DNA of 64,000 nt from Trypanosoma brucei (GCA_000002445.1 CP000069.1:480001-544000); one strand, 5' to 3'. Shown: positions 7,653 through 26,656, counted from the stretch's first letter. Numbers and translations are program-made. Notes: a model not told the origin generated them from the letters alone.

Positions 7653-8708
7653 TCAGATAAAACAGAGGGATACTGATAGTAACGTAATTTTGAGTGAGGG
7701 AAATGATGCAATATTCTGTTTTTGTGTTTGTGTGGGTTGAGCATCGGAATCCTTTCGTGCTGCAGTTTGGGGTGCTGTTCTCGAGGGTTGCGCGCCTTCA
7801 GCTCCAGCTCCAGATTCCTTTAATGCTTTTACTTCCTCTTCATTTTTCGCTTTACCGTAAGTTCCCTTTAACTTTTTAACTTTCTCTCTCAACTTTTGAA
7901 GAGCTGCATCTCTTTTATTCATGTGACCCATCGCCTGATTCAACTGCTCAACCCACGGCTTTGAAGCAAGTGGATCAGGTTCCTCCTCAACTCTTGGCGG
8001 TGGGGGAACGCCGTGTGGTGGGAACGGAGGTTGTGGTGGTGCTGGTGGCGGCTGTGGAGATCCGTTGTTTTGGCCATCTGAATACCAATTTCGCAAATCC
8101 TCCAAGTCCTGTTTTATAGCCTTAACAGTAACCTCAACGCTACCAGATCCTACTGTACACCTACCTTTAAGTTCCTTCCATAACTGCAGACGGTCTTCCG
8201 GTGTTTGATGCTCCCTCTGATTTTGAGCAGTTCCCGCAACAAAGCAGCTTTCAGTGGCTCCACTTGCAGAGCTGCAAAGGCATACAATTTCTTTCGGTAT
8301 TGTTGTTGAACGGCTTGTTTCATTGCAGGGTTGGTTTTCCCCACGGGATCCAAAAGTTTTGTCCGCATTCTCGGTTTCGATGTCATCCCCATACGCTGCT
8401 TTCCGAAACGCTGTCCTGGCGCTATTTTCATGACTCTGCACTTCGTCTTCTAACTCTTTAACTTTATCCACCTCTGTTTTCAAAGCCGCTGAATCCCTGG
8501 CACCTTTATTAAACCACTGATAATTACTATCATCTTTTAACTTATCAATGTAATTTTCTTTCGCTCCCTTTTCCGCCTTCGTGAAGAGTCCACACAAAAG
8601 ATCAAATCCCTTCCCGTGCTTCCTGTAGTCTATCACGTTATCGTCTCCAGCCGTTACCAACGTTACCGACACTCCCACAACGACCACTTGTACAATTGCT
8701 TGCCACAT
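7653..8708 (-). CDS. Surface-protein family copy 1, 351 aa. It has a signal peptide, a conserved-Cys helical domain, a Pro-rich hinge, and an invariant C-terminal tail with a GPI-anchor-like signal.
   Basis: ATG confirmed at 8706-8708. N-terminus MWQAIVQVVVVGVSVTLVTAG. Pro tract PQPPPAPPQPPFPPHGVPPPP. C-terminus ...QKQNIASFPSLKITLLSVSLCFI is a hydrophobic tail after small residues. Paralogous to copies 2-5. Confidence 0.8.
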   Translation of the reverse strand: MWQAIVQVVVVGVSVTLVTAGDDNVIDYRKHGKGFDLLCGLFTKAEKGAKENYIDKLKDDSNYQWFNKGARDSAALKTEVDKVKELEDEVQSHENSARTAFRKAAYGDDIETENADKTFGSRGENQPCNETSRSTTIPKEIVCLCSSASGATESCFVAGTAQNQREHQTPEDRLQLWKELKGRCTVGSGSVEVTVKAIKQDLEDLRNWYSDGQNNGSPQPPPAPPQPPFPPHGVPPPPRVEEEPDPLASKPWVEQLNQAMGHMNKRDAALQKLREKVKKLKGTYGKAKNEEEVKALKESGAGAEGAQPSRTAPQTAARKDSDAQPTQTQKQNIASFPSLKITLLSVSLCFI

Positions 8709-10368
8709 TCCTGTGATTCTTCATTATGCACGACAAAGCAAGAAACAAAAAACAGAATTCACATTAAACACAACAGTAATATCAAATAAATGTTGTCTAT
8801 CATGACATGCGCATGTATTATCCCACAGAGCAGTTATTGACTTTCAACCATCGGCGCAAAATGATATATCTTCAAAGGCAGAGCAAACAAACTAACATAA
8901 CATCCAACAGGCCATCTCAACAAGCTCACTATACACGAGGATAGTAAATTCGTCAAATCACTTTACAGATGCCATCGTCGTGATTTCCATTAAACTTTCT
9001 GAATTCCATGTCCCTCTCTCTCTCTCTGAAAGGAATTTGCTTAAAGCATAACATCTAATTCCCCAAAAATGAGTTACACATCCCACATCAAGTCTTTCAC
9101 CCGCCTTACCCTGGTGTATTTCAATCACTCAACTTCTGACAATTCCTATATTCATATTCTTTTCGTTACACTTCCTTAAAATCCTTCCAGACAACCAAGC
9201 ACATCACATTGTTTTATCTTTACATCACTATTAAATGAACAGCAAAAAAAAAATGTACACATCTCCAACACACATGCCGAGTAAACTTCTTGACACCTGA
9301 GGCCGCTCCCACTCCAATCTCGATGGCCTTAACATCAATAACACTCTTGACTAACACTAATATTATTGTGTGATAAAAGAATTGGAAGGATACATTCCCT
9401 AACATGATACCGAAAATTACTGAAACACAAATGTGTAAAGAGTCTAGGAATGGATATACAAAAGGTGGTGTTTAGTAAGAGAAGGGCAATTAACTGCCAC
9501 CCGGAGTGTCTATTTCGTTTAACCTCATCCCGTATATTGTCAACAATACAAAGTCTTATAAAACACACCACCAGTTGTTCTCCAATAAATATACGTTATA
9601 CATGCCAATATCACAAACACTGCAACATCCTCTTTCTTCAACACTTCAAATACGTAACTCATATATCACTTGCTAAAGGTCTTAGTACCATATCCATGCC
9701 TCACTGAAGGGTTTGTGCCGTAACCCAATTAAATGTTGCTTCCTCTCCTCCTTCCATTTCCTCACAATAGGATACGCAGAGCTGCAACTTTGTAATATGT
9801 GCGCAGTTGATGGGGACTTCAGCCGTTATCACTTTAAATTGCAAATGGAAATTCTGAAACAATTCCAATACTCCCTCATGAATACCAACTGTTGCGTGTG
9901 TGTCTCCCATATACCGGCAGTTGCCATTACTGCAATGTTATGCTCAATGAGGATCTTTTTAATATCAAGTGTTAACGGCAACTATTTTATTGTTCATGTC
10001 AGGCTCATATTCATGTAAGTGAAATGGGTGAAACTGTTCTTTTCCTTACTTTGCATTATATAAATAAGAGGAAATAAGGGATGCTTGTTAGAGGCACGCA
10101 ACAGACACATACACATATGAGAGTTTCCATCCAACAATACATACATACCCTTTAAATAGTCCACCAACTGGAGGATGACACCAGCATGTCAGTGAGGGAA
10201 GCAGTATGTCTAGGAATAACATAAAAGACACGCGTGAAGGAATTTACATATTTGTTGCCTTGCTTTGCCTGCTGCGAATACCATATCACCTCCATCAGTA
10301 AAGTTACGGAATTCGGTAAACTTCCATGAATGCACATAAGCAACTGATACACACACACTTTTCCCTTC

Positions 10369-10983
10369 CTATTCCTCTCCTGCACAACTCACATGTTCAC
10401 TTGACGCACTGTCATCCGCTGCAGCAAGTAACTGTTGTCTTCCAGGTGGTTTCTCTCCAGTCAATGCACCACAGAAGCTTACAGTTACTGGCAAAACGGG
10501 TCTGCCCACATCATCAAGAGGAACTGCCTCAAGTTTCTCTAGCAGTGAGAGATCATCAATGGCACGTCCAAACACAACTTGCTTGAAATCAAGAGATGGA
10601 GAAGGACCAAGTGTAATGCCAAATACGGAGCCACTTGTGTGAGGACCCTCAGAGATCATTGTGAGGAGCCCACGTTCCGTGTGTCGGTGACGGTATCCTT
10701 CATCCGCTATTGGTGTGCCAGTGGAGGAGAGGTTAAAGGAATCCAATTCACCCAACACAATGATATTATTGTTGTGATCCACATGATGCACTTGTGTGCC
10801 AAGGTAATCCAATTTCACACCCGTGTTGGTGTCAATCCCACATGACCCAGTGATTAATGCCCTGAAGTTTTCTACGGTTTGTGGCACTACATCGTCAAAG
10901 AGCTCAAATACCAGTCGTCCGCTGAGAACGTCATCAATAGACATATCCAGGAAGGCACGGCAGGAGTTCTGTTCCTCCTTCAT
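10369..10983 (-). CDS. Cyclophilin-like protein, copy 1 (cyclophilin-type PPIase fold, divergent). It is 204 aa from the first ATG; the ORF track extends it to 11034 with an apparent GTG.
   Basis: It aligns to the cyclophilin A core: RLVFELFDDVVPQTVENFRALITG matches [23 protein letters not shown], and FKQVVFGRAIDDLSLLEKLEAV matches [22 protein letters not shown]. Several catalytic positions (Arg55, Gln63, Asn102, Trp121, His126 equivalents) appear substituted. ATG at 10981-10983 checked; the codon at 11032-11034 is cac, i.e. GTG in sense. Confidence 0.7.
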   Translation of the reverse strand: MKEEQNSCRAFLDMSIDDVLSGRLVFELFDDVVPQTVENFRALITGSCGIDTNTGVKLDYLGTQVHHVDHNNNIIVLGELDSFNLSSTGTPIADEGYRHRHTERGLLTMISEGPHTSGSVFGITLGPSPSLDFKQVVFGRAIDDLSLLEKLEAVPLDDVGRPVLPVTVSFCGALTGEKPPGRQQLLAAADDSASSEHVSCAGEE

Positions 10984-11581
10984 GCGATGACTCCGCTGGT
11001 AATTTTCCCATTCCTTTAAGCGGTGCTGTCTCACATAATCTCATAATTTCCTAGTTTGCACTTTACAAAAGGACAAAAAAAAAAGTAAATATATTGACAC
11101 AACGAAGCACACTCCGTACCCATCCTCCCTCTATTGTTAGTTTCCCAACCAATATACTGCACATTATATGCACAGTAAACGTAAGCTAAAATATATAGAT
11201 ATCTGGTAACCGCAACTGGCGGTTGTAACACTAGTCAATACGGTGCACATAAATTTTATACGAGTTCTTACGAACAAAGTTATTCCATCAACAATATGAA
11301 ACACAAAATGATATATAAACACACAAGACAAACAAACCCCATCTCTGCCAAATGCACTTTTACATTTCTACGGGTGAGCCATTATTGGAGTCCCGTGGCA
11401 GTAAACACTATTACAAACATTATTGGGGGAAGCTTTGGAATAGGATATATAAGACAAGGAAATCAGTAACACAACACATTTGAATGCTTACATTAATTTA
11501 TAGAATATTGATGCGTATGATAACGTTGCGGCAAACAGTTTACATTGCAATATGCTTTTGAATCGTATTTCATTATGATAG

Positions 11582-12607
11582 TCAGATAAAACAGAGGGAT
11601 ACTGACAGTAACGTAATTTTGAGTGAGGGGGATGATGCAATATTCTGTTTTTGTGTTTGTGTGGGTTGAGCATCGGAATCCTTTCGTGCTGCAGTTTGGG
11701 GTGCTGTTCTCGAGGGTTGCGCACCTTCAGCTCCAGCTCCAGATTCCTTTAATGCCTTTACTTCCTCTTCATTTTTCGCTTTACCGTAAGTTCCCCTCAA
11801 CTTTTCGACTTGCTCTCTCAACTTTTGAAGAGCCTCATCTCTTCCCTTCATGTGGTCTGTTGCCTCATTCAAGTTCTTAACCCACGGCTTAGAAGTAAAT
11901 ATATCAGGCTCCTCCTCAGGCATTGGTGGACCGCCGGGCGGCGGGGGTGGTGGACCGTCATGTATTGGTTTTTCAGGATACAATCCTCGCAAACCCTCCA
12001 AGTCCTTTCTTATGGCATCAACAGTAACCTCAACTCTATTGATACCCTTTGTACATTTTCCCTTAAGTTCAACCCATGCCTGAAGACCGTCTTCGGCGTT
12101 TCCGTTCTGGCCATACTCTCGGGCTTTCCCGCTCCCAAGGCAGTAGTCGGTGGCCTCACCAACAGAGCTGCAAGTGCAGACAATTTCTTTTGGTAATGCT
12201 GGCCACTCGCTAGCTGGGTTACAGGGCTGGTTGCCCCCATGGGACCCAAACGTTTTGTCCGCATCCTCTTTTTCAATGTTTTCCCCATACGCTGCTTTTT
12301 GAAACGATGACCTGGCGCCATTTTCATGACTCTTTACTTCGTCTTCTAACTCTTTAACTTTATCCACCTCCGCTTTTAAAGCTGGTGAATCCCTGGCATC
12401 TTTATTAAACCACTGATAATCTTCGGTTTCTTTTAACTTATCGAGGTGACTTTTTTCTTTCGCTCCCTTTTCTGCCTTCGTGAAGAGTGAGCACAAGAGA
12501 TCAAATCCCTTTTTGTTTTTTTCATGGTCAACTGCGTTATCGTCTTGAGCTGTTATCCGCGTTACCAACACTCCCACCATGACCACTTTCATAATTACTC
12601 TCCACAT
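11582..12607 (-). CDS. Surface-protein family copy 2, 341 aa.
   Basis: ATG confirmed at 12605-12607. Architecture matches copy 1. Pro tract GPPPPPPGGPPMPEEEPD. The C-terminal ~75 aa are identical to copies 4 and 5. Confidence 0.8.
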   Translation of the reverse strand: MWRVIMKVVMVGVLVTRITAQDDNAVDHEKNKKGFDLLCSLFTKAEKGAKEKSHLDKLKETEDYQWFNKDARDSPALKAEVDKVKELEDEVKSHENGARSSFQKAAYGENIEKEDADKTFGSHGGNQPCNPASEWPALPKEIVCTCSSVGEATDYCLGSGKAREYGQNGNAEDGLQAWVELKGKCTKGINRVEVTVDAIRKDLEGLRGLYPEKPIHDGPPPPPPGGPPMPEEEPDIFTSKPWVKNLNEATDHMKGRDEALQKLREQVEKLRGTYGKAKNEEEVKALKESGAGAEGAQPSRTAPQTAARKDSDAQPTQTQKQNIASSPSLKITLLSVSLCFI

Positions 12608-14251
12608 AGATGTATACCTTTATTATTCGTAATAACAACACAGTAAAAAATAATAGAACATTCATAATAAACACTACAATAATATCAAATCAATGTTGTC
12701 TATCATAACATTGCGTATATTATCCCACAGAGCAAGTGTTAATTTTAAACTCTCGGCAGAAAGTGATATATCTTGCACAGGCAGAGCAAACAGGCTGAAA
12801 TAAAATAGCACCCAACAGGCCATCTCCACAAGTTCACTATACACACAAGAATGATAAATTCACTCAGTTACTCAACAGATGCCAGATATTTGATTTCCCA
12901 TAAACTTTTTTTATTCCTTACTGCTCTAACTCTCTGAAAGGAATTTCCCTCATACAGTAGATTCAGCTGGGTCAAGAAGAGGCACACATCCCACCTCAAC
13001 TTTTTCACCTGCCCAATTTCGGTTTATTTCGGCCAGATACCTTATGATAATTCCCATACTCATATCATTATAGTCACACTTTCTCCATGTCCTCTCAGAC
13101 ACACAAACAAATCATGTTCCTCAATCTTCACATCGCTGTTAAAAACAACAACAGCAAAAAGAAAATACCCACGGTATATTCATTGCTATCTTGTTCCAAA
13201 GCTAGTTCCGTGACCGTAACGTCAGCGACATTCCCTACGAACACAAATATTATCATGTGATAAAAGAATTGGAAGGACACATTTCCTAATATGAAACCGC
13301 AAATCACTGAAACACAAATGTGTAAAGTGTCTAGGAATGGATATACAAAAGGTGGTGTTTAGTGAGGGAAGGATTATTAACTGCCACCCAGTGTGTCTAT
13401 TTCTTTACACCTCATTTCGTATATTGTCAACAATACAAAGTCTTATAAAACATACCATCAGTTGTTCTCCAATAAATATACGTTATACATGCCAATATCA
13501 CAGACACTGCAACATCCTCTTTCTTCAACACTTCAAATACGTAACTCATATACTACTTGCTAAATGTCTTAGTACCATATCCATGCCTCACTGAAGGGTT
13601 TGTGCCGTAACCCAATTAAATGTTGCTTCCTCTCCTCCTTCCATTTCCTCACAATATGATACGCAGAGCTGCAACTTTGTAATATGTGCGCAGTTGATGG
13701 GGACTTCAGTGGTTATCACTTTAAATTGCAAATGGAAATTCTGAAACAGTTCCAATACTCCCTCATGAATACCAACTAGTGTGTGTCTCCCATATACTAG
13801 CAGTTGTCATTACTGCAATGTTATGCTCAATGAGGATCTTTTTATTATCAAGTGTTAGCGCCAACTATTTTATTGTTCATGTCAGGCTCATATTCATGTA
13901 AGTGAAATGGGTGAAACTGTTCTTTTCCTTACTTTGCATTATATAAATAAGAGGAAATAAGGAATGCTTGTTAGAGGCACTCAACAGACACATACACATA
14001 TGAGAGTTTCCATCCAACAATACATACATATCCTTTAAATAGTCCACCAACTGGAGGATGACACCAGCAGGTCAGTGAGGGAAGCAGTATGTCTAGGAAT
14101 AATATAAAAGACACGTGTGACAAAATTTACATATTTGTTGCCTTGCTTTGCCTGCTGCGAATACCATATCACCTCCATCAGTAAAGTTACGGAATTCGGT
14201 AAACTTCCATGAATGCACATAAGCAACTGATACACACACTCTCTTCCCTTT

Positions 14252-14866
14252 CTATTCCTCTCCTGCACAACTCACATGTTCACTTGACGCACTGTCATCC
14301 GCTGCAGCAGGTACCTGTTGTCTTCCAGGTGGTTTCTCTCCAGTCAATGCACCACAGAAGCTTACAGTTACTGGCAAAACGGGTCTGTCCACATCATCAA
14401 GAGGAACTGCCTCAAGTTTCTCTAGCAGTGAGAGATCATCAATGGCACGTCCAAACACAACTTGCTTGAAATCAAGAGATGGAGAAGGACCAAGTGTAAT
14501 GCCAAATACGGAGCCACTTGTGTGAGGACCCTCAGAGATCATTGTGAGAAGCCCACGTTCCGTGTGTCGGTGACGGTATCCTTCATCCGCTATTGGTGTG
14601 CCAGTGGAGGAGAGGTTAAAGGAATCCAATTCACCCAACACAATGATATTATTGTTGTGATCCACATGATGCACTTGTGTGCCAAGGTAATCCAATTTCA
14701 CACCCGTGTTGGTGTCAATCCCACATGACCCAGTGATTAATGCCCTGAAGTTTTCTACGGTTTGTGGCACTACATCGTCAAAGAGCTCAAATACCAGTCG
14801 TCCGCTGAGAACGTCATCGATGGACATGTCCAGGAAGGCACGGCAGGAGTTCTGTTCCTCCTTCAT
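14252..14866 (-). CDS. Cyclophilin-like protein, copy 2, 204 aa.
   Basis: ATG confirmed at 14864-14866 (MKEEQNSC...). It is near-identical to the other copies, with DDVDRP in place of DDVGRP. An upstream in-frame stop comes from a c-to-a change (ttttacc versus ttttccc). Confidence 0.7.
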   Translation of the reverse strand: MKEEQNSCRAFLDMSIDDVLSGRLVFELFDDVVPQTVENFRALITGSCGIDTNTGVKLDYLGTQVHHVDHNNNIIVLGELDSFNLSSTGTPIADEGYRHRHTERGLLTMISEGPHTSGSVFGITLGPSPSLDFKQVVFGRAIDDLSLLEKLEAVPLDDVDRPVLPVTVSFCGALTGEKPPGRQQVPAAADDSASSEHVSCAGEE

Positions 14867-15466
14867 GCGATGACTCCGCTGGTAATTTTACCATTCCTTT
14901 AAGCGGTGCTGTCTCACATTATTTCATAATTTCCTAATTTGCACTCTACAGCAGGACAAAAAAAAAAAAGAGGAAATATATTGACACAGCAAAGCACACT
15001 CAGTACCCATCCTCCCTCTATTGTTAGTCTCCACACCAATATATTGCCCATTATATGCACAGGAAACGTAAGCTAAAATATATATAGATATCCGGTAACC
15101 GCAACTGGCGGTTGCAACAGTAGCCAACACGGTACACATAAATGTTTTAAGTTCTTACGAACAAAGTTATTCCATCAATAATATGAAACACAAAATGGCA
15201 TAAACACACAAGACAAACAAACCCCATCTCTGCCAAATGCACTTTTACATTTCTGTGGGTGAGCCATTATTGGAGTCCCGTGGCAGTAAACACTATTACA
15301 AACATTATTCGGAGAAGCTTTGAAATAAGATATATAAGACAAGGAAATCAGTAACACAACACATTTGAATGCTTACATTAGTTTATAGAATATTGATGCG
15401 TATGATAGCGTTGCGGCAAACAGTTTACATTGCAATATGCTTTTGAATCGTTCCTTATTATGATAG

Positions 15467-16504
15467 TCAGATAAAACAGAGGGATACTGATAGTAACGTA
15501 ATTTTGAGTGAGGGAAATGATGCAATATTCTGTTTTTGTGTTTGTGTTTGTGTGGGTTGAGGATCGGAATCCTTTCGTGCTGCAGTTTGGGGTGCTGTTC
15601 TCGAGGGTTGCACACCTTCAGCTCCAGCTCCAGATTCCTTTAATGCCTTTACTTCCTCTTCATTTTTCGCTCTACCGTAAGTTCCCTTCAGCCTTTTAAC
15701 TTTCTCCTTCAAGTTTTCCAGCGCTGCATCTCTCTTATTCATATGGCTCATCGCCTCATCTAACCGCTTAACCCATGGCTTAGAAGCAAGAGGATCAGGC
15801 CTTTCAGGTATTTGTAGTGGTGAACTGTCTGGTGGTGGTGGTGATGGTGGTGGTGGGGGTGGTGGGGGTGGTGGGGAATCAACTTCCTGGTCTTCTGAAT
15901 ACAATCCTCGCAAATTCTCCAAGTCTTTTCTTATGGCTTCAATAGTAACCTCAACTCTTTCGCTATCCTTTGTACACCTGCTCTTAACTCCATACCATGC
16001 CTGTAGACCGTCTTCCGCTGTCCCGCTTTGGTCATGGCCATAACTTCGAGCCTTCCCGCTCCCAAGGCAGTAGTCGGTGGCCTCGCCAACAGAGCTGCAA
16101 ATGCAGACAATTTCTTTTGGTATTGTTGGCCACTCACTAGCTGGGTTACAGGGCTGGTTGCCCCCATGGGATCCAAAAGTTTTGTCCGCATCCTCTTTTT
16201 CAATGTTTTCCCCATACGCTGCTTTCCGAAACGCTGTCCTGGCATTATTTTCATGACTCTGCACTTCGCTTTCTAACTCTTTCACCTTTTCCGTCTCCGT
16301 TTTCAGAGTCGATGAATCTCTAGCATGTTTCAACTTACCGATGTAGTTTTCTCCTTTTGCTCCCTCTGCCGCCTTCGTGAAGAGCGAGCACAAAATATCA
16401 AACATCTTCTCGTTTTTGCCATGGTTCCTCCAGCTGTCCTCGCCGACAGTAACCTGCGATACCAACACTCCCACCATGACCACTTGCATAAATGATCGCC
16501 ACAT
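15467..16504 (-). CDS. Surface-protein family copy 3, 345 aa, the most divergent N-terminal and central region.
   Basis: N-terminus MWRSFMQVVMVGVLVSQVTVG. Longest Pro tract, SPPPPPPPPPPSPPPPDSSP, encoded by a (GGT/GGG)n run on the plus strand at ~15830-15880. Shares the invariant C-terminal tail. Confidence 0.8.
   Translation of the reverse strand: MWRSFMQVVMVGVLVSQVTVGEDSWRNHGKNEKMFDILCSLFTKAAEGAKGENYIGKLKHARDSSTLKTETEKVKELESEVQSHENNARTAFRKAAYGENIEKEDADKTFGSHGGNQPCNPASEWPTIPKEIVCICSSVGEATDYCLGSGKARSYGHDQSGTAEDGLQAWYGVKSRCTKDSERVEVTIEAIRKDLENLRGLYSEDQEVDSPPPPPPPPPPSPPPPDSSPLQIPERPDPLASKPWVKRLDEAMSHMNKRDAALENLKEKVKRLKGTYGRAKNEEEVKALKESGAGAEGVQPSRTAPQTAARKDSDPQPTQTQTQKQNIASFPSLKITLLSVSLCFI
15828..15880. 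repeat. (GGT/GGG)n trinucleotide-like tract encoding the poly-Pro hinge of surface-protein copy 3
   Basis: ggtggtggtggtgatggtggtggtgggggtggtgggggtggtgggg on the plus strand encodes PPPPPPPPPPSPPPP on the minus strand. Shorter, different-length equivalents lie in the other four copies at ~8000-8050, 11930-11960, 19680-19720 and 23560-23600. Confidence 0.85.
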
Positions 16505-18097
16505 TGTTGTCTTTCTTCACTGTAAACAACAGCACAGAGAAAAACAGCATTCATATTAAACACTACCGTAAAATCAAATAAATGCTGTCTACCTTAAAAC
16601 ATGCACATGTATTATCCCACAGATCAAATATTAATTTTCAACCATCGGCATAAAAAGATATGCCTTTCGTAGGCAGAGCAAACAAACTAACATAACATCC
16701 AACAAGCCACCTCAACAAGCTCACTATACACGAGGATAGTAAATTCGTCAAATCACTATACAGATGCCATCGTCGTCATTTCCCTCATACAGTAGATTCA
16801 GCTGGGTCAAAAAGAGACACACATCCCACATCAAGTCTTTCACCTGCCTTATCCTGGTGTATTTCAATCACTCAACCTCTGACAATTGCTATATTCATAT
16901 TCTTTTGGTTACACTTTCTTAATATCCTCTCAGATACACGAGCACATCACATTGCTTATCTTTACATGGCAATCCAAAATAACAACAGAACCAAAATGCA
17001 CACAGTAAACTTCTTGACACCTGAGGCCGCTCCCACTCCAATCTCGAGGGCCTTAACATCAGAGACACTCTTGACTAACACTAATACTATTGTGTGATAA
17101 AAGAATTGGAAGGATACATTTCCTAACATGACACCGAAAATTACTGAAACACAAATGTGTAAAGTGTCTATGGATGGAAATGCAAAATATGTGGTGTTTA
17201 GTAAGGGAAGGATTATTAACTGCCACCCGGAGTGTATATTTCGTTTAACCTCACTCTGCATATTCTGAACAATACCAAATCTTATAAAACACACCACCAG
17301 TTGTTCTCCAATAAATATACGTTATACATGCCAATATCACAAACACTGCAACATCCTCTTTCTTCAACACTTCAAATACGTAACTCATATATCACTTGCT
17401 AAAGGTCTTAGTACCATATCCATGCCTCACTGAAGGGTTCGTGCCCCTACCCAATTAAATGTTGCTTCCTCTCCTCCTTCCATTTCCTCACAATATGATA
17501 CGCAGAGCTGCAACTTTGTAATATGTGCGCAGTTGATGGGGACTTCAGCCGTTATCACTTTAAATTGCAAATGGAAATTCTGAAACAATTCCAATACTCC
17601 CTCATGAATACCAACTGTTGCGTGTGTGTCTCCCATATACCGGCAGTTGCCATTACTGCAATGTTATGCTCAATGAGGATCTTTTTAATATCAAGTGTTA
17701 ACGGCAACTATTTTATTGTTCATGTCAGGCTCATATTCATGTAAGTGAAATGGGTGAAACTGTTCTTTTCCTTACTTTGCATTATATAAATAAGAGGAAA
17801 TAAGGGATGCTTGTTAGAGGCACGCAACAGACACATACACATATGAGAGTTTCCATCCAACAATACATACATACCCTTTAAATAGTCCACCAACTGGAGG
17901 ATGACACCAGCATGTCAGTGAGGGAAGCAGTATGTCTAGGAATAACATAAAAGACACGCGTGAAGGAATTTACATATTTGTTGCCTTGCTTTGCCTGCTG
18001 CTACGAATACCATATCACCTCCATCAGTAAAGTTACGGAATTCGGTAAACTTCCATGAATGCACATAAGCAACTGATACACACACACTTTTCCCTTC

Positions 18098-18712
18098 CTA
18101 TTCCTCTCCTGCACAACTCACATGTTCACTTGACGCACTGTCATCCGCTGCAGCAAGTAACTGTTGTCTTCCAGGTGGTTTCTCTCCAGTCAATGCACCA
18201 CAGAAGCTTACAGTTACTGGCAAAACGGGTCTGCCCACATCATCAAGAGGAACTGCCTCAAGTTTCTCTAGCAGTGAGAGATCATCAATGGCACGTCCAA
18301 ACACAACTTGCTTGAAATCAAGAGATGGAGAAGGACCAAGTGTAATGCCAAATACGGAGCCACTTGTGTGAGGACCCTCAGAGATCATTGTGAGGAGCCC
18401 ACGTTCCGTGTGTCGGTGACGGTATCCTTCATCCGCTATTGGTGTGCCAGTGGAGGAGAGGTTAAAGGAATCCAATTCACCCAACACAATGATATTATTG
18501 TTGTGATCCACATGATGCACTTGTGTGCCAAGGTAATCCAATTTCACACCCGTGTTGGTGTCAATCCCACATGACCCAGTGATTAATGCCCTGAAGTTTT
18601 CTACGGTTTGTGGCACTACATCGTCAAAGAGCTCAAATACCAGTCGTCCGCTGAGAACGTCATCAATAGACATATCCAGGAAGGCACGGCAGGAGTTCTG
18701 TTCCTCCTTCAT
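18098..18712 (-). CDS. Cyclophilin-like protein, copy 3, 204 aa from the first ATG. The ORF track extends it to 18763.
   Basis: The translated protein is identical to copy 1. Confidence 0.7.
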   Translation of the reverse strand: MKEEQNSCRAFLDMSIDDVLSGRLVFELFDDVVPQTVENFRALITGSCGIDTNTGVKLDYLGTQVHHVDHNNNIIVLGELDSFNLSSTGTPIADEGYRHRHTERGLLTMISEGPHTSGSVFGITLGPSPSLDFKQVVFGRAIDDLSLLEKLEAVPLDDVGRPVLPVTVSFCGALTGEKPPGRQQLLAAADDSASSEHVSCAGEE

Positions 18713-19316
18713 GCGATGACTCCGCTGGTAATTTTCCCATTCCTTTAAGCGGTGCTGTCTCACATTATTTCATAATTTCCTAATTTGCACTCTACAGCAG
18801 GACAAAAAAAAAAAAGAGGAAATATATTGACACAGCAAAGCACACTCAGTACCCATCCTCCCTCTATTGTTAGTCTCCACACCAATATATTGCCCATTAT
18901 ATGCACAGGAAACGTAAGCTAAAATATATATAGATATCCGGTAACCGCAACTGGCGGTTGTAACACTAGTCAATACGGTGCACATAAATTTTATACGAGT
19001 TCTTACGAACAAAGTTATTCCATCAACAATATGAAACACAAAATGATATATAAACACACAAGACAAACAAACCCCATCTCTGCCAAATGCACTTTTACAT
19101 TTCTACGGGTGAGCCATTATTGGAGTCCCGTGGCAGTAAACACTATTACAAACATTATTGGGGGAAGCTTTGGAATAGGATATATAAGACAAGGAAATCA
19201 GTAACACAACACATTTGAATGCTTACATTAATTTATAGAATATTGATGCGTATGATAACGTTGCGGCAAACAGTTTACATTGCAATATGCTTTTGAATCG
19301 TTCCTTATTATGATAG

Positions 19317-20360
19317 TCAGATAAAACAGAGGGATACTGATAGTAACGTAATTTTGAGTGAGGGGGATGATGCAATATTCTGTTTTTGTGTTTGTGTGGG
19401 TTGAGCATCGGAATCCTTTCGTGCTGCAGTTTGGGGTGCTGTTCTCGAGGGTTGCGCACCTTCAGCTCCAGCTCCAGATTCCTTTAATGCCTTTACTTCC
19501 TCTTCATTTTTCGCTTTACCGTAAGTTCCCCTCAACTTTTCGACTTGCTCTCTCAACTTTTGAAGAGCCTCATCTCTTCCCTTCATGTGGTCTGTTGCCT
19601 CATTCAAGTTCTTAACCCACGGCTTAGAAGTAAATATATCAGGCTCCTCCTCAGGCATTGGTGGACTGCCAGGTGGGAACGGAGGTGGCGGTGGTGGCGG
19701 TGGAGGTTCTTGGCCTTTTGAGTCGTCTGAATACAAACCCCTCAAACCCTCCAAGTCCTTTTCTATAGCTTCGACAGTAACCTCGGCACTGCTGCTGGCA
19801 CTCGTACATTTTCCCTTAACTCCATTCCATGCCTGTAGACGCTGTTCAGCCGTGGTATCGTCGTGATTTCGGGCATTCTCGCTCCCACCGAAGCAGCTTT
19901 CAGTGGCACCTTGTGTGGGGCTGCAACTACAGATGATACTGTTAGGTATCGTTGACCATCGGTTTGTTTCGTCGCATGGATTGCCTACTGTATGGTGTCC
20001 AAAAGTTTTGTCCGCGTCCTCTTCTTCAATGTTATCCCCATAGGCTGCTTTCCGAAACGCTGTCTTGGCGCCACTTTCATGGCTCTGCACTTTGTTTTCT
20101 AACTCTTTAACTTTATCCACCTCCGCTTTTAAAGCTGGTGAATCCCTGGCATCTTTATTAAACCACTGATAATCTTCGGTTTCTTTTAGCTTATCGAGGT
20201 GACTTTTTTCTTTCGCTCCCTTTTCTGCCTTCGTGAAGAGTGAGCACAAGAGATCAAATCCCTTCTTGTCTTTCTCGTGGTCAATCCAGTCATTCTTTCC
20301 CATTGCAACTCCCGTTACCAACACTCCCACCATGACCACTTTCATAATTACTCTCCACAT
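19317..20360 (-). CDS. Surface-protein family copy 4, 347 aa.
   Basis: N-terminus MWRVIMKVVMVGVLVTGVAMGKNDW. Pro tract EPPPPPPPPPFPPGSPPMPEEEPD. It differs from copy 5 at only ~6 residues. Confidence 0.8.
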   Translation of the reverse strand: MWRVIMKVVMVGVLVTGVAMGKNDWIDHEKDKKGFDLLCSLFTKAEKGAKEKSHLDKLKETEDYQWFNKDARDSPALKAEVDKVKELENKVQSHESGAKTAFRKAAYGDNIEEEDADKTFGHHTVGNPCDETNRWSTIPNSIICSCSPTQGATESCFGGSENARNHDDTTAEQRLQAWNGVKGKCTSASSSAEVTVEAIEKDLEGLRGLYSDDSKGQEPPPPPPPPPFPPGSPPMPEEEPDIFTSKPWVKNLNEATDHMKGRDEALQKLREQVEKLRGTYGKAKNEEEVKALKESGAGAEGAQPSRTAPQTAARKDSDAQPTQTQKQNIASSPSLKITLLSVSLCFI

Positions 20361-21987
20361 AGATGTATACCTTTATTATTCGTAATAACAACACAGTAAA
20401 AAATAATAGAACATTAATATTAAACACTACAGTAATATCAAATCAATGTTGTCTATCATAACATTGCGTATATTATCCCACAGAGCAGTTATTACTGTTT
20501 AACTCTCAGCAGAAAGTGATATGCCATTCATAGGCAGAGCATGCAAACTAACATAACATCCAACAAGCCATCTCCACAAGCTCACTATACACGAGGATAG
20601 TAAATTCACGAAGTCACTTTACAGATGCCATCGTCGTGATTTCCCTCAATCTTTTTTTATTCCTTACTGCTCTAACTCTCTGAAAGGAATTTCCCTCATA
20701 CAGTAGATTCAGCTGGGTCAAAAAGAGGCACACATCCCACATCAAGTCTTTCACCTGCCTTATCCTGGTGTATTTCAACCACACACCTTCTAGGAATATT
20801 CATATATAATTATAGTCACACTTTCTCCATGTCCTCTCAGACACAAGAACAAATCATGATCCTCTACTTTTACATCACTATTAAATGAACAGCAAAAAGA
20901 AAATACACACAATATATTCATTGATATATGGTTCCCACTGCTGGTTCCGTGACCGTAATGTCAGTGACACATTTTACGAACACAAATACTATGATAAAAG
21001 AATTGGAAGGACACATTTCCTAACATGACACCGAAAATTACTGAAACACAAATGTGTAAAGTGTCTATGGATGGAAATGCAAAATATGTGGTGTTTAGTA
21101 AGGGAAGGATTATTAGCTGCCACCCGGAGTGTATATTTCTTTACACCTCATTTCGTATCTTGTCAACAATACAAAGTCTTATAAAACACACCACCAGTTG
21201 TTCTCCAATAAATATACGTTATACATGCCAATATCACAGACACTGCAACATCCTCTTTCTTCAACACTTCAAATACGTAACTCATATATCACTTGCTAAA
21301 GGTCTTAGTACCATATCCATGCCTCACTGAAGGGTTTGTGCCGTAACCCAATTAAATGTTGCTTCCTCTCCTCCTTCCATTTCCTCACAATATGATACGC
21401 AGAGCTGCAACTTTGTAATATGTGCGCAGTTGATGGGGACTTCAGTGGTTATCACTTTAAATTGCAAATGGAAATTCTGAAACAGTTCCAATACTCCCTC
21501 ATGAATACCAACTAGTGTGTGTCTCCCATATACTAGCAGTTGTCATTACTGCAATGTTATGCTCAATGAGGATCTTTTTATTATCAAGTGTTAGCGCCAA
21601 CTATTTTATTGTTCATGTCAGGCTCATATTCATGTAAGTGAAATGGGTGAAACTGTTCTTTTCCTTACTTTGCATTATATAAATAAGAGGAAATAAGGAA
21701 TGCTTGTTAGAGGCACTCAACAGACACATACACATATGAGAGTTTCCATCCAACAATACATACATATCCTTTAAATAGTCCACCAACTGGAGGATGACAC
21801 CAGCAGGTCAGTGAGGGAAGCAGTATGTCTAGGAATAATATAAAAGACACGTGTGACAAAATTTACATATTTGTTGCCTTGCTTTGCCTGCTGCGAATAC
21901 CATATCACCTCCATCAGTAAAGTTACGGAATTCGGTAAACTTCCATGAATGCACATAAGCAACTGATACACACACACTTTTCCCTTC

Positions 21988-22602
21988 CTATTCCTCTCCT
22001 GCACAACTCACATGTTCACTTGACGCACTGTCATCCGCTGCAGCAAGTAACTGTTGTCTTCCAGGTGGTTTCTCTCCAGTCAATGCACCACAGAAGCTTA
22101 CAGTTACTGGCAAAACGGGTCTGCCCACATCATCAAGAGGAACTGCCTCAAGTTTCTCTAGCAGTGAGAGATCATCAATGGCACGTCCAAACACAACTTG
22201 CTTGAAATCAAGAGATGGAGAAGGACCAAGTGTAATGCCAAATACGGAGCCACTTGTGTGAGGACCCTCAGAGATCATTGTGAGGAGCCCACGTTCCGTG
22301 TGTCGGTGACGGTATCCTTCATCCGCTATTGGTGTGCCAGTGGAGGAGAGGTTAAAGGAATCCAATTCACCCAACACAATGATATTATTGTTGTGATCCA
22401 CATGATGCACTTGTGTGCCAAGGTAATCCAATTTCACACCCGTGTTGGTGTCAATCCCACATGACCCAGTGATTAATGCCCTGAAGTTTTCTACGGTTTG
22501 TGGCACTACATCGTCAAAGAGCTCAAATACCAGTCGTCCGCTGAGAACGTCATCAATAGACATATCCAGGAAGGCACGGCAGGAGTTCTGTTCCTCCTTC
22601 AT
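21988..22602 (-). CDS. Cyclophilin-like protein, copy 4, 204 aa from the first ATG. The ORF track extends it to 22653.
   Basis: Identical to copies 1 and 3. Confidence 0.7.
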   Translation of the reverse strand: MKEEQNSCRAFLDMSIDDVLSGRLVFELFDDVVPQTVENFRALITGSCGIDTNTGVKLDYLGTQVHHVDHNNNIIVLGELDSFNLSSTGTPIADEGYRHRHTERGLLTMISEGPHTSGSVFGITLGPSPSLDFKQVVFGRAIDDLSLLEKLEAVPLDDVGRPVLPVTVSFCGALTGEKPPGRQQLLAAADDSASSEHVSCAGEE

Positions 22603-23202
22603 GCGATGACTCCGCTGGTAATTTTCCCATTCCTTTAAGCGGTGCTGTCTCACATAATCTCATAATTTCCTAGTTTGCACTTTACAAAAGGACAAAAAAA
22701 AAAGTAAATATATTGACACAACGAAGCACACTCCGTACCCATCCTCCCTCTATTGTTAGTTTCCCAACCAATATACTGCACATTATATGCACAGTAAACG
22801 TAAGCTAAAATATATATAGATATCTGGTAACCGCAACTGGCGGTTGTAACACTAGTCAATACGGTGCACATAAATTTTATACGAGTTCTTACGAACAAAG
22901 TTATTCCATCAACAATATGAAACACAAAATGATATATAAACACACAAGACAAACAAACCCCATCTCTGCCAAATGCACTTTTACATTTCTACGGGTGAGC
23001 CATTATTGGAGTCCCGTGGCAGTAAACACTATTACAAACATTATTGGGGGAAGCTTTGGAATAGGATATATAAGACAAGGAAATCAGTAACACAACACAT
23101 TTGAATGCTTACATTAATTTATAGAATATTGATGCGTATGATAACGTTGCGGCAAACAGTTTACATTGCAATATGCTTTTGAATCGTATTTCATTATGAT
23201 AG

Positions 23203-24246
23203 TCAGATAAAACAGAGGGATACTGACAGTAACGTAATTTTGAGTGAGGGGGATGATGCAATATTCTGTTTTTGTGTTTGTGTGGGTTGAGCATCGGAAT
23301 CCTTTCGTGCTGCAGTTTGGGGTGCTGTTCTCGAGGGTTGCGCACCTTCAGCTCCAGCTCCAGATTCCTTTAATGCCTTTACTTCCTCTTCATTTTTCGC
23401 TTTACCGTAAGTTCCCTTTAACTTTTTGACTTGCTCTCTCAACTTTTGAAGAGCCTCATCTCTTCCCTTCATGTGGTCTGTTGCCTCATTCAAGTTCTTA
23501 ACCCATGGCTTAGAAGCAAATTGATCAGGCTTCTCCTCAGGCATTGGTGGACTGCCAGGTGGGAACGGAGGTGGCGGTGGTGGCGGTGGAGGTTCTTGGC
23601 CTTTTGAGTCGTCTGAATACAAAGCCCTCAAACCCTCCAAGTCCTTTTCTATAGCTTCGACAGTAACCTCGGCACTGCTGCTGGCACTCGTACATTTTCC
23701 CTTAACTCCATTCCATGCCTGTAGACGCTGTTCAGCCGTGGTATCGTCGTGATTTCGGGCATTCTCGCTCCCACCGAAGCAGCTTTCAGTGGCACCTTGT
23801 GTGGGGCTGCAACTACAGATGATACTGTTAGGTATCGTTGACCATCGGTTTGTTTCGTCGCATGGATTGCCTACTGTATGGTGTCCAAAAGTTTTGTCCG
23901 CGTCCTCTTCTTCAATGTTATCCCCATAGGCTGCTTTCCGAAACGCTGTCTTGGCGCCACTTTCATGGCTCTGCACTTTGTTTTCTAACTCTTTAACTTT
24001 ATCCACCTCCGCTTTTAAAGCTGGTGAATCCCTGGCATCTTTATTAAACCACTGATAATCTTCGGTTTCTTTTAGCTTATCGAGGTGACTTTTTTCTTTC
24101 GCTCCCTTTTCTGCCTTCGTGAAGAGTGAGCACAAGAGATCAAATCCCTTCTTGTCTTTCTCGTGGTCAATCCAGTCATTCTTTCCCATTGCAACTCCCG
24201 TTACCAACACTCCCACCATGACCACTTTCATAATTACTCTCCACAT
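23203..24246 (-). CDS. Surface-protein family copy 5, 347 aa.
   Basis: Near-identical to copy 4, with substitutions clustered around EEKPDQFASK and EQVKKLKG. These are states that copy 1 also carries. Confidence 0.8.
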   Translation of the reverse strand: MWRVIMKVVMVGVLVTGVAMGKNDWIDHEKDKKGFDLLCSLFTKAEKGAKEKSHLDKLKETEDYQWFNKDARDSPALKAEVDKVKELENKVQSHESGAKTAFRKAAYGDNIEEEDADKTFGHHTVGNPCDETNRWSTIPNSIICSCSPTQGATESCFGGSENARNHDDTTAEQRLQAWNGVKGKCTSASSSAEVTVEAIEKDLEGLRALYSDDSKGQEPPPPPPPPPFPPGSPPMPEEKPDQFASKPWVKNLNEATDHMKGRDEALQKLREQVKKLKGTYGKAKNEEEVKALKESGAGAEGAQPSRTAPQTAARKDSDAQPTQTQKQNIASSPSLKITLLSVSLCFI

Positions 24247-25873: not shown

Positions 25874-26656
25874 CTATTCCTCTCCTGCACAACTCACATG
25901 TTCACTTGACGCACTGTCATCCGCTGCAGCAGGTACCTGTTGTCTTCCAGGTGGTTTCTCTCCAGTCAATGCACCACAGAAGCTTACAGTTACTGGCAAA
26001 ACGGGTCTGCCCACATCATCAAGAGGAACTGCCTCAAGTTTCTCTAGCAGTGAGAGATCATCAATAGCACGTCCAAACACAACTTGCTTGAAATCAAGAG
26101 ATGGAGAAGGACCAAGTGTAATGCCAAATACGGAGCCACTTGTGTGAGGACCCTCAGAGATCATTGTGAGAAGCCCACGTTCCGTGTGTCGGTGACGGTA
26201 TCCTTCATCCGCTATTGGTGTGCCAGTGGAGGAGAGGTTAAAGGAATCCAATTCACCCAACACAATGATATTATTGTTGTGATCCACATGATGCACTTGT
26301 GTGCCAAGGTAATCCAATTTCACACCCGTGTTGGTGTCAATCCCACATGACCCAGTGATTAATGCCCTGAAGTTTTCTACGGTTCGCGGCACTACATCGT
26401 CAAAGAGTTCAAATACCAGTCGTCCGCTGAGAACGTCATCAATGGACATATCCAGGAAGGCACGGCAGGAGTTCTGTTCCTCCTTCATGCGATGACTCCG
26501 CTGGTAATTTTCCCATTCTTTTAAACGGCGCTCCTCCACATCGTCGTAACGACTCTGAAGTGTCGCAGAGTCTTCATCATTTTCTGGTCGTTGTAACCTC
26601 GAATCTCCCTTTTTCCTGCGGGAGTGCCGTACACCTTCTAGTTTTGTCGTTGACAT
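25874..26656 (-). CDS. Cyclophilin-like protein, copy 5, the full-length form: 260 aa from the ATG at 26656. The ORF-track start at 26692 is an apparent TTG.
   Basis: It has a unique ~56-aa N-terminal extension (MSTTKLEGVRHSRRKKGDS...RYDDVEERRLKEWENYQRSHR) that the internal copies lack. Homology to the internal copies begins at RLKEWENY, which is the array junction. ATG checked at 26654-26656. Confidence 0.65.
   Translation of the reverse strand: MSTTKLEGVRHSRRKKGDSRLQRPENDEDSATLQSRYDDVEERRLKEWENYQRSHRMKEEQNSCRAFLDMSIDDVLSGRLVFELFDDVVPRTVENFRALITGSCGIDTNTGVKLDYLGTQVHHVDHNNNIIVLGELDSFNLSSTGTPIADEGYRHRHTERGLLTMISEGPHTSGSVFGITLGPSPSLDFKQVVFGRAIDDLSLLEKLEAVPLDDVGRPVLPVTVSFCGALTGEKPPGRQQVPAAADDSASSEHVSCAGEE

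What the first reader, a model, noticed from the sequence alone, without database searches (positions are those of the whole stretch)
7653..24246. Mosaic surface-protein paralogues: invariant ends, variable ectodomain core
Across the five copies, the signal peptide region is similar in three of them. The last ~75 residues (…GTYGKAKNEEEVKALKESGAGAEGAQPSRTAPQTAARKDSDAQPTQTQKQNIAS[S/F]PSLKITLLSVSLCFI) are essentially identical in all five. The region between the first Cys motif (FDLLCSLF) and the Pro hinge differs extensively (for example NETSRSTTIPKEIVCLCSSASGATESCFVAG versus NPASEWPALPKEIVCTCSSVGEATDYCLGSG versus DETNRWSTIPNSIICSCSPTQGATESCFGGS), while five Cys positions are retained. This is the signature of a surface family under diversifying selection on an exposed domain, with concerted evolution of the anchoring and tail regions.
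Basis: seen in the sequence. Interest (0 to 1): 0.7.

Follow-up and report, generated by a model that had tools for sequence, protein, structure and literature searches.

The report
Known VSG-derived Fam1 surface-gene array
The five genes are the published "Fam1" array of Trypanosoma brucei, small surface proteins descended from the parasite's coat protein; their variable cores are old, recombining sequence variants under net purifying selection, not the product of recent positive selection.

Summary
Five intact minus-strand ORFs (341-351 aa) share a near-identical 70-72-residue tail and differ strongly in a core that keeps its Cys positions. They are identical to T. brucei TREU927 chromosome 6 proteins XP_845253 to XP_845261. 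This is the Fam1 array (Tb927.6.1310-.1390) of Jackson et al. 2013: derived from b-type VSG, with a signal peptide and a predicted GPI anchor, found in the flagellar pocket.

- The invariant tail is one part of a homogeneous 3.9-kb repeat unit. That unit also covers the 3'UTR and a 5'-truncated cyclophilin gene, and all four internal junctions are identical.
- The variable part is a roughly 1.65-kb island. It also takes in about 0.85 kb of upstream non-coding DNA.
- In the ectodomain, dN/dS is 0.26-0.55 (NG86) and dS is 0.36-0.86. No window is consistently above 1.
- Shared tracts between copies are significant, so the genes are mosaics.

The single-copy genes of T. b. gambiense and T. equiperdum are each a further distinct variant, about 80% nucleotide identity in the gene against 95-100% in most of the surrounding DNA. 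Neighbouring genes have dS of 0.004-0.054. I did not find this hyperdivergence between strains reported. It suggests an old allele pool, partly captured in tandem in TREU927. Known family; modest interest.

The parts
7653..8708 (-). Fam1 copy c1 (351 aa; XP_845253). Taken to be Tb927.6.1310, because it is the only copy with two NxS/T sequons. It is the last gene of the transcription unit before the convergent strand-switch region.
   Evidence: PMC3605285
11582..12607 (-). Fam1 copy c2 (341 aa; XP_845255). A mosaic: N-terminal codons ~40-62 and the C-terminal third match c4, and the Cys-loop block matches c3.
15467..16504 (-). Fam1 copy c3 (345 aa; XP_845257). Has a 10-codon deletion in helix 1 and a TQ insertion in the tail.
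19317..20360 (-). Fam1 copy c4 (347 aa; XP_845259)
23203..24246 (-). Fam1 copy c5 (347 aa; XP_845261). 99.0% nucleotide identity to c4; the 10 differences lie in the C-terminal third of the CDS, 7 of them in alignment codons 247-284.
19540..21200 (-). Divergence island of the c4 unit (approximate). It runs from ~840 bp upstream of the ATG to about codon 274. Approximate equivalents in the other units: 7876-9548, 11805-13447, 15690-17344, 23426-25086.
   Evidence: identity between units 50-90% here against 95-100% elsewhere; the same island when strains are compared
19317..19529 (-). Homogenised tail of c4, from GTYGK to the stop codon. Equivalents: 7653-7865, 11582-11794, 15467-15685, 23203-23415. 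Tail dS is 0.02-0.08.
25874..26656 (-). Full-length cyclophilin-type PPIase gene at the head of the array (260 aa, as in T. b. gambiense)
10369..11034 (-). 5'-truncated cyclophilin duplicate inside the repeat unit. The others are at 14252-14866, 18098-18763 and 21988-22653.
11013..11036 (-). Duplication junction ATGTGAGACA|GCACCGCTTAAAGG. Identical copies lie at 14896-14919, 18742-18765 and 22632-22655. It joins a point ~555 bp downstream of a Fam1 stop codon to a point about 40 codons into the cyclophilin CDS, at the microhomology GAYGATGTGGA.
5253..7652 (.). Convergent strand-switch region between the array and the + strand gene at 4320-5252. No tRNA gene and no Rfam hit.

Best explanation
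The five ORFs are the published Fam1 array of T. brucei brucei TREU927 chromosome 6 (Tb927.6.1310-.1390).

The protein. Each encodes a ~39-kDa protein with a signal peptide, a shortened b-type-VSG-like N-terminal domain modelled as a three-helix bundle, a loop region holding five of the six conserved ectodomain Cys, a poly-Pro hinge, a long C-terminal helix, a disordered tail and a hydrophobic GPI-type C-terminus. There is no VSG C-terminal domain.

The array. It arose from one microhomology-mediated tandem duplication of a 3.9-kb segment (Fam1 plus part of the upstream cyclophilin gene) and grew by unequal crossing-over. About 2.3 kb of each unit is therefore 95-100% identical: the tail codons, the 3'UTR, the junction and the cyclophilin gene.

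The variable part. A ~1.65-kb island covers ~0.85 kb of upstream non-coding DNA plus the first ~275 codons. It carries deeply diverged haplotypes shuffled by segmental gene conversion. Equally diverged haplotypes occupy the single-copy locus in T. b. gambiense and T. equiperdum.

Inferred origin. The diversity is an old allele pool, and TREU927 has captured four of its members in tandem. Replacement changes are under net purifying selection.

Inferred function. The variable blocks (mature N-terminus, Cys loops, hinge) sit at the membrane-distal end of the bundle. The shared 3'UTR gives all copies the same stage regulation. The protein is a low-abundance flagellar-pocket receptor or immune target whose head variants are kept by balancing or host-specific selection.

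What is shown: identity, architecture, junctions, the island, dN/dS, mosaicism and the divergence between strains. What is inferred: allele capture, orientation on the membrane, and the selective agent.
For: Identity:
- The ORFs match XP_845253/55/57/59/61 exactly, on a 1,618,915-bp TREU927 contig.
- Pfam VSG_B is hit at E 3e-12 to 2e-8, over model positions ~126-281 of 352; no VSG C-terminal domain is hit.
- A HMMER profile search of 1.8 billion representatives found only T. brucei b-type VSGs as outside relatives, at E 3e-7 to 8e-4.

Fold:
- AlphaFold2 gives confident helices at 25-71, 75-107, 171-214 and 247-294.

Repeat unit and island: see the identity profile. The four junctions are identical, show microhomology, and are absent from the gambiense and equiperdum loci.

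Selection:
- Ectodomain dN is 0.17-0.32 and dS 0.36-0.86, giving omega 0.26-0.55. Tail dS is 0.02-0.08.
- c2 and c3 share a recently exchanged block, and omega there is also 0.2-0.4.

Mosaicism (permutation test on runs of shared polymorphic sites):
- p<0.001 for c2-c4 and for c1-gambiense; p=0.0005 for c2-c3.
- p=0.0085 for c1-equiperdum; p=0.0025 for gambiense-equiperdum.

Between strains:
- The gambiense and equiperdum genes are 79-84% identical in nucleotides (70-74% in amino acids) to every TREU927 copy, while most surrounding DNA is 95-100% identical.
- Seven neighbouring genes have dS 0.004-0.054 and dN at most 0.004 between TREU927 and gambiense.

Literature: Fam1 description and localisation (PMC3605285); GPI prediction and salivary-gland and metacyclic transcripts (PMC3378594); duplication absent from T. 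evansi and gambiense (PMC4288722); surface proteome (PMC4587319 supplement).
Against: - The structure model is weak overall (mean pLDDT 54.7, seven-sequence alignment). The variable Cys-loop region (112-179) is below pLDDT 50, so the membrane-distal placement rests on helix topology alone.
- Only three genomes were available. The allele pool is inferred from six distinct sequences.
- The single copies in gambiense, equiperdum and T. evansi could be collapsed arrays. An ancient array with region-specific homogenisation predicts much of the same pattern.
- No population data and no outgroup exist here, so balancing selection is not tested.
- At dS of 0.6-1.0, NG86 estimates approach saturation, and YN00 failed for several pairs.
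- Which copies are expressed is unknown.
Confidence: 0.7

Rival explanations
1. After duplication, positive diversifying selection (immune pressure) drove amino-acid change in the exposed ectodomain, while the anchor and tail were kept uniform by concerted evolution.
For: Variable columns cluster in the mature N-terminus, the Cys-loop region and the hinge. These are predicted loops, not the helices. The tail and flanks are homogenised. YN00 omega reaches 0.7-0.84 for some pairs.
Against: Omega is below 1 for every pair and region, and no sliding window is consistently above 1. dS in the core is 0.36-0.86, against 0.02-0.08 in the tail, so the core is older and not merely faster at replacement sites. 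About 0.85 kb of upstream non-coding DNA is just as diverged. The same island separates single-copy genes of different subspecies, so the divergence does not depend on the duplication.
Confidence: 0.12
2. An ancient array. The five-copy array predates the T. brucei subspecies. The cores diverged in place over a long time while the flanks were continually homogenised. Gambiense, T. evansi and equiperdum lost copies by unequal crossing-over.
For: Crossing-over between the first and last cyclophilin copies would leave exactly the gambiense layout, a full-length cyclophilin plus one Fam1 gene. Gambiense and equiperdum share a significant tract with c1, the terminal copy. Gene conversion between units is evident.
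Against: The gambiense and equiperdum genes are not chimeras of c1-c5. Several 20-codon blocks reach only 48-75% nucleotide identity to any TREU927 copy. Differences between units in the flanks (0-5%) are of the same order as flank differences between strains (1-5%), which fits a young array.
Confidence: 0.15
3. Neutral drift of redundant duplicates, or an assembly artefact in which allelic haplotypes were placed in tandem.
For: The copies are co-transcribed and look redundant. TREU927 is a heterozygous diploid.
Against: Omega is 0.26-0.55, not about 1. All seven ORFs are intact and six Cys columns are invariant. Four distinct cores exceed the two haplotypes of a diploid. The junction occurs four times, with unit-specific flanking SNPs. 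Independent papers treat the array as real and as variable in copy number.
Confidence: 0.03

Closest known systems
Fam1 of the African trypanosome cell-surface phylome (Tb927.6.1310-.1390; Jackson et al. 2013, PMC3605285)
   Same: It is the same locus. [quoted passage not shown]
   Different: The paper states 0.1-3.2% nucleotide divergence between copies; here it is 1.0-25.5%. The paper says the gambiense gene corresponds to Tb927.6.1310; here it is only 80% identical in nucleotides to that copy, apart from one shared tract. I did not find these described there: the island with its non-coding part, the junction, dN/dS, and the divergence between subspecies.
Canonical b-type VSG (Pfam PF13206 plus PF10659)
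   Same: Remote but significant sequence homology to the middle of the B-type N-terminal domain. Helical-bundle fold. GPI-type C-terminus. A variable cassette flanked by a conserved 3' end that can serve as recombination homology.
   Different: The ectodomain is about half as long. There is no VSG C-terminal domain. The genes are chromosome-internal in a Pol II polycistron between housekeeping genes. No 70-bp-repeat core motif was found. All copies are co-transcribed, not expressed one at a time. The protein is low in abundance and found in the flagellar pocket.
ESAG6/7 transferrin receptor and other VSG-derived or three-helix-bundle receptors (HpHbR, factor H receptor, ISG65)
   Different: No ligand is known. 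ESAG6/7 derives from a-type VSG and works as a heterodimer. Fam1 carries a poly-Pro hinge and a long disordered tail, and it shows far deeper divergence between alleles.
MISP/BARP (Fam50) five-copy array on chromosome 7
   Different: It is a different sequence family with no VSG_B match. From memory, MISP paralogues are more than 80% identical, whereas Fam1 cores are 65-77% identical.
Variable tandem arrays with allelic gene conversion in T. brucei (Jackson 2007, PMC1855330)
   Same: Homogenised repeat structure with chimaeric copies. That paper proposes that less conserved regions can escape conversion and then diverge.
   Different: Here the island of escape is also hyperdivergent between subspecies at a single-copy locus. 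Escape from conversion after duplication does not by itself explain that.

Membership tests
Fam1 (Tb927.6.1310-.1390) | Protein sequences identical to the TREU927 chromosome 6 gene products | tested here: met
   Exact look-up returned XP_845253, 845255, 845257, 845259 and 845261 on a 1,618,915-bp TREU927 contig.
Fam1 (Tb927.6.1310-.1390) | Five non-identical tandem copies next to a strand-switch region | tested here: met
   Five ORFs spaced ~3.9 kb apart on the minus strand. They converge on the + strand gene at 4320-5252.
Fam1 (Tb927.6.1310-.1390) | b-type VSG homology without the VSG C-terminal domain | tested here: met
   PF13206 scores 34-47 bits against a cut-off of 25 in all five copies. 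PF10659 is not hit, although it is hit in three of the four VSGs recovered by HMMER.
Fam1 (Tb927.6.1310-.1390) | Signal peptide and GPI-anchor signal | not testable with these tools
   Hydrophobic N- and C-termini are visible in the sequence. No predictor was available. BigPI, FragAnchor and SignalP calls are reported for Tb927.6.1310 in PMC3378594.
Canonical b-type VSG | Full-length B-type N-terminal domain (~350 positions) | tested here: not met
   Only model positions ~126-281 of 352 are matched, and the mature ectodomain before the hinge is ~195 aa.
Canonical b-type VSG | VSG C-terminal domain (PF10659) | tested here: not met
   No hit at E up to 0.1.
Canonical b-type VSG | Subtelomeric or expression-site cassette with upstream 70-bp repeats | tested here: not met
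   The genes are embedded among conserved housekeeping-type genes. A core motif of the 70-bp repeat, recalled from memory, had no match at up to 3 mismatches.
Trypanosome three-helix-bundle surface receptors (HpHbR, factor H receptor, ISG65, GARP, MISP) | Elongated three-helix-bundle fold | tested here: inconclusive
Trypanosome three-helix-bundle surface receptors (HpHbR, factor H receptor, ISG65, GARP, MISP) | Binding of a defined host ligand | not testable with these tools
   None.
Surface family under diversifying (positive) selection | dN/dS above 1 in the variable region | tested here: not met
   NG86 gives 0.26-0.55 and YN00 0.41-0.84 for all 15 pairs. Sliding windows rise above 1 only sporadically, where dS is small.
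Tandem array shaped by unequal crossing-over and gene conversion | Shared junctions, homogeneous flanks and statistically significant mosaic tracts | tested here: met
   Four identical junctions; flanks 95-100% identical; runs of shared polymorphic sites significant by permutation for several pairs, p from 0.0085 to below 0.001.
Locus under long-term balancing selection | Local peak of synonymous and non-coding diversity far above the neighbourhood, with allelic lineages shared across populations | tested here: inconclusive
   The peak is shown: dS is 0.45-0.69 between TREU927 copies and gambiense, against 0.004-0.054 in seven neighbouring genes, and divergence decays over about 0.6-1.2 kb. 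Sharing across populations, frequency spectra and an outgroup were not available.

The most novel reading that the evidence does not exclude
The Fam1 island is a balanced polymorphism shared across T. brucei subspecies. Under this reading, a pool of old head-domain haplotypes of a VSG-derived flagellar-pocket protein is maintained by frequency-dependent or host-specific selection. The haplotypes are shuffled as cassettes through the homogenised flanks, and in TREU927 several have been fixed side by side by unequal crossing-over between homologues. Fam1 would then be a chromosome-internal, co-expressed counterpart to the VSG cassette logic, and a candidate polymorphic host-ligand receptor.
Probability: 0.35. 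Interest if true: 0.6.

Novelty: already known. Interest (0 to 1): 0.3.

Why it matters
The family, its array, its VSG ancestry and its localisation are already published, so the finding as written adds little.

What may be useful is the size and shape of the variation. A VSG-derived, surface-exposed bloodstream-form protein differs by about 20% in nucleotides between subspecies whose neighbouring genes differ by about 1%. The divergence extends into non-coding DNA, and the protein is under net purifying selection.

If population data confirm an old allele pool, Fam1 would be a tractable case of balancing selection on a non-variant trypanosome surface protein. It would also be a candidate host-interaction or diagnostic-typing locus. 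The result also warns that a pattern of conserved ends and a variable middle in tandem arrays can come from the repeat architecture rather than from selection on the protein.

Tried and rejected
- Tandem Repeats Finder found nothing in the array, because its longest period is 500 bp and the unit is 3.9 kb. Units were aligned by script instead.
- A first unit alignment with overlapping units misaligned c5 and was redone with non-overlapping units.
- PDB sequence searches with one protein and with the family profile gave no significant hit. VSG615 appeared only at E 1.5.
- A second word-indexed protein search, with the alignment and E up to 10, found no further relatives. Import of the cores from other annotated genes is therefore unsupported. 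Unannotated VSG pseudogene archives could not be searched.
- A 70-bp-repeat core motif, recalled from memory, was not found, so the island is not a VSG-type transposition cassette in that sense.
- There are no tRNA genes and no Rfam families in the window.
- YN00 returned no value for several pairs, so NG86 is the main estimate.
- The afdb50 fold library was unavailable. The 2012 PNAS paper that first placed this family among b-type VSGs is not held.
- Site-wise selection tests were not attempted. Six distinct, recombining sequences give no power.
Full report
**What is there.** The window holds five intact minus-strand ORFs at exactly the stated coordinates: c1 7653-8708, c2 11582-12607, c3 15467-16504, c4 19317-20360 and c5 23203-24246 (341-351 aa). 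They alternate with ORFs for cyclophilin-type peptidyl-prolyl isomerases. All five pass Pfam's threshold for the B-type VSG N-terminal domain (PF13206, 34-47 bits, E 3e-12 to 2e-8). The match covers only model positions ~126-281 of 352, and the VSG C-terminal domain is not hit. The interleaved ORFs match PF00160. c2, c4 and c5 share the signal-peptide start. The last 70-72 residues from GTYG(K/R) are almost invariant. The quoted core strings are present. Six ectodomain Cys columns are invariant, five of them between the FDLLC motif and the poly-Pro hinge. One caveat applies: c4 and c5 have the same core, and c2 and c3 share much of the Cys-loop block. That leaves about three core types, not five.

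**Identity.** The proteins are identical to XP_845253, 845255, 845257, 845259 and 845261 of T. brucei brucei TREU927, on a 1,618,915-bp contig. This is Fam1 of Jackson et al. 2013 (PMC3605285). That paper describes a polymorphic five-copy tandem array at a strand-switch region of chromosome 6. [quoted passage not shown] HA-tagged Tb927.6.1310 localised to the flagellar pocket and endosomes of bloodstream forms, and T. b. gambiense has one copy.
- Savage et al. 2012 list Tb927.6.1310 as predicted GPI-anchored, with transcripts in salivary-gland and metacyclic parasites.
- Carnes et al. 2015 report that the Tb927.6.1310-.1390 duplication is absent from T. evansi STIB805 and from gambiense.
- The Gadelha et al. 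2015 supplement lists Tb927.6.1310, tagged Fam01, in the surface-labelled bloodstream-form proteome, with 2 peptides and about 180-fold enrichment.
- c1 is the only copy with two N-glycosylation sequons, matching the published description of Tb927.6.1310.

**The pattern belongs to the repeat unit, not only the protein.** I aligned the five 3.9-kb units. They are 95-100% identical across the cyclophilin gene, most of the spacer, the last ~70 Fam1 codons and the 3'UTR. The exception is a ~1.65-kb island, where pairwise identity drops to 50-90%. It runs from ~840 bp upstream of the Fam1 ATG to about codon 274. The invariant tail is thus one end of a homogeneous block that continues through non-coding DNA and the next gene. 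The variable core likewise extends into non-coding DNA.

**Origin of the array.** All four internal junctions are the same sequence, ATGTGAGACA|GCACCGCTTAAAGG. Each joins a point ~555 bp downstream of a Fam1 stop codon to a point about 40 codons into the cyclophilin CDS. Both parent sequences carry GAYGATGTGGA at the breakpoint. The junction is absent from the gambiense and equiperdum loci. The array therefore descends from one microhomology-mediated duplication followed by unequal crossing-over. The internal cyclophilin copies are 5'-truncated by-products.

**Selection.** Results by region:
- Ectodomain, across all 15 pairs of the six distinct sequences: NG86 gives dN 0.17-0.32, dS 0.36-0.86 and omega 0.26-0.55. 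YN00 gives 0.41-0.84.
- Cys-loop block alone: dS reaches 0.75-1.1, with omega 0.39-0.49.
- Tail: dS is 0.02-0.08.
- Windows of 30 codons rise above 1 only sporadically, where dS is small.
- The block c2 and c3 exchanged recently shows omega 0.2-0.4.

Neutral drift fails too, because omega is well below 1, all seven ORFs are intact and the Cys columns are conserved. The core differs because it is much older than the tail at silent sites as well.

**Mosaicism.** I ran a permutation test on runs of concordant polymorphic sites. It gave p<0.001 for c2-c4 (alignment codons ~40-62 and ~251-348) and for c1-gambiense (codons 46-87). It gave p=0.0005 and 0.0035 for two c2-c3 tracts (codons 128-139 and 159-167). 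It also gave p=0.0085 for c1-equiperdum and p=0.0025 for gambiense-equiperdum. The 3'UTRs fall into two haplotypes, {c2, c5} and {c3, c4}.

**Other strains.** The gambiense DAL972 locus (L001) has one full-length cyclophilin gene and one Fam1 gene. The T. equiperdum locus (L002) has one Fam1 gene. Each is a further distinct variant, 79-84% identical in nucleotides and 70-74% in amino acids to every TREU927 copy. Most surrounding DNA is 95-100% identical, and divergence decays over about 0.6-1.2 kb on either side of the same island. Seven neighbouring genes have dS 0.004-0.054 and dN at most 0.004 between TREU927 and gambiense. For Fam1 the values are dS 0.45-0.69 and dN 0.18-0.28. This does not match the published figure of 0.1-3.2% divergence among copies; I measure 1.0-25.5%. 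The published statement that the gambiense gene corresponds to Tb927.6.1310 holds only for position and one shared tract.

**Best explanation.** The diversity is an old pool of island haplotypes. It exists independently of the duplication, because single-copy loci carry equally diverged variants. The TREU927 array is comparatively young: its flank differences are of the same order as those between strains, and it has a single junction type. It has brought four haplotypes into tandem, most simply by unequal crossing-over and conversion between homologues carrying different alleles. c4 and c5 are the latest duplication. The homogeneous flanks serve as recombination homology for exchanging the island, which is reminiscent of VSG cassette logic. 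However, no 70-bp-repeat core motif (recalled from memory) was found, and all copies are co-transcribed in one polycistron that ends at the convergent strand-switch region. The shared 3'UTR implies common stage regulation; this is an inference. Balancing or host-specific selection on a distal head of a low-abundance flagellar-pocket protein would explain the depth of the lineages and the local diversity peak. It is untested.

**Rivals.**
- An ancient array with region-specific homogenisation and later collapse in other lineages remains possible. It does not explain why the single copies are not chimeras of c1-c5.
- Pervasive positive selection is contradicted by dN/dS and by the non-coding divergence.
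- Drift and assembly artefact are rejected.

**Verdict.** The hyperdivergent island between subspecies is the one aspect I did not find reported and that seems worth following up.

Noticed in passing
window 4320-5252 (+): A 310-aa ORF with a signal-peptide-like N-terminus and a C-terminal transmembrane segment, and no Pfam match. It faces the Fam1 array across the convergent strand-switch region. It is conserved in gambiense and equiperdum (dN 0.003, dS 0.054 against gambiense). It may be another surface protein.
   Followed up: partly
window 10369-11034, 14252-14866, 18098-18763, 21988-22653 (-); full-length copy at 25874-26656: The four cyclophilin copies inside the array are 5'-truncated at the duplication junction. 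The copy at 14252 also has a G-to-T stop just upstream, which leaves a 204-aa ORF. Whether the truncated copies are expressed is unknown.
   Followed up: partly
L002 ~9569-9685 (T. equiperdum CM010677.1): The equiperdum assembly jumps, with no run of N, from the equivalent of window 32256 to ~430 bp upstream of the Fam1 ATG. The MATH-domain gene, the UPF0220 gene, the 229-aa gene and the cyclophilin gene are missing. This is either a real ~7-kb deletion or a misassembly.
   Followed up: partly
c1 residues N129 and N215; equiperdum N133: N-glycosylation sequons occur only in c1 (two) and the equiperdum protein (one). None occur in c2-c5 or the gambiense protein. The variants would differ in glycosylation.
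   Followed up: no
PMC3605285, text and Figure 6 legend: The paper gives 0.1-3.2% nucleotide divergence among Fam1 copies, whereas the CDS identities measured here are 74.5-99.0%. Its figure legend says chromosome 5 while its text says chromosome 6. It gives 347 aa for the protein, whereas c1 is 351 aa.
   Followed up: yes
window ~18820-19000 and equivalents (distal Fam1 3'UTR): There are two 3'UTR haplotypes, {c2, c5} and {c3, c4}. They are 100% identical within each pair and 82-93% identical between pairs, and they do not follow the relationships of the cores. This indicates crossovers between units.
   Followed up: partly
window 50000-52200: A ~2.5-kb AT-rich, low-complexity intergenic stretch (GC 0.31) between the genes at 48032-49936 and 52496-53461. 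It contains poly-purine and poly-pyrimidine runs and short CA and GA repeats.
   Followed up: no
window 57710-57897: A 93-bp unit repeated twice in tandem (95% match) inside the ORF at 56815-57975.
   Followed up: no
L001 10001-10018 (gambiense Fam1 start): The gambiense ORF starts six codons (MKEERI) upstream of the MW start used by the other copies. This may be an annotation choice rather than a real N-terminal extension.
   Followed up: no
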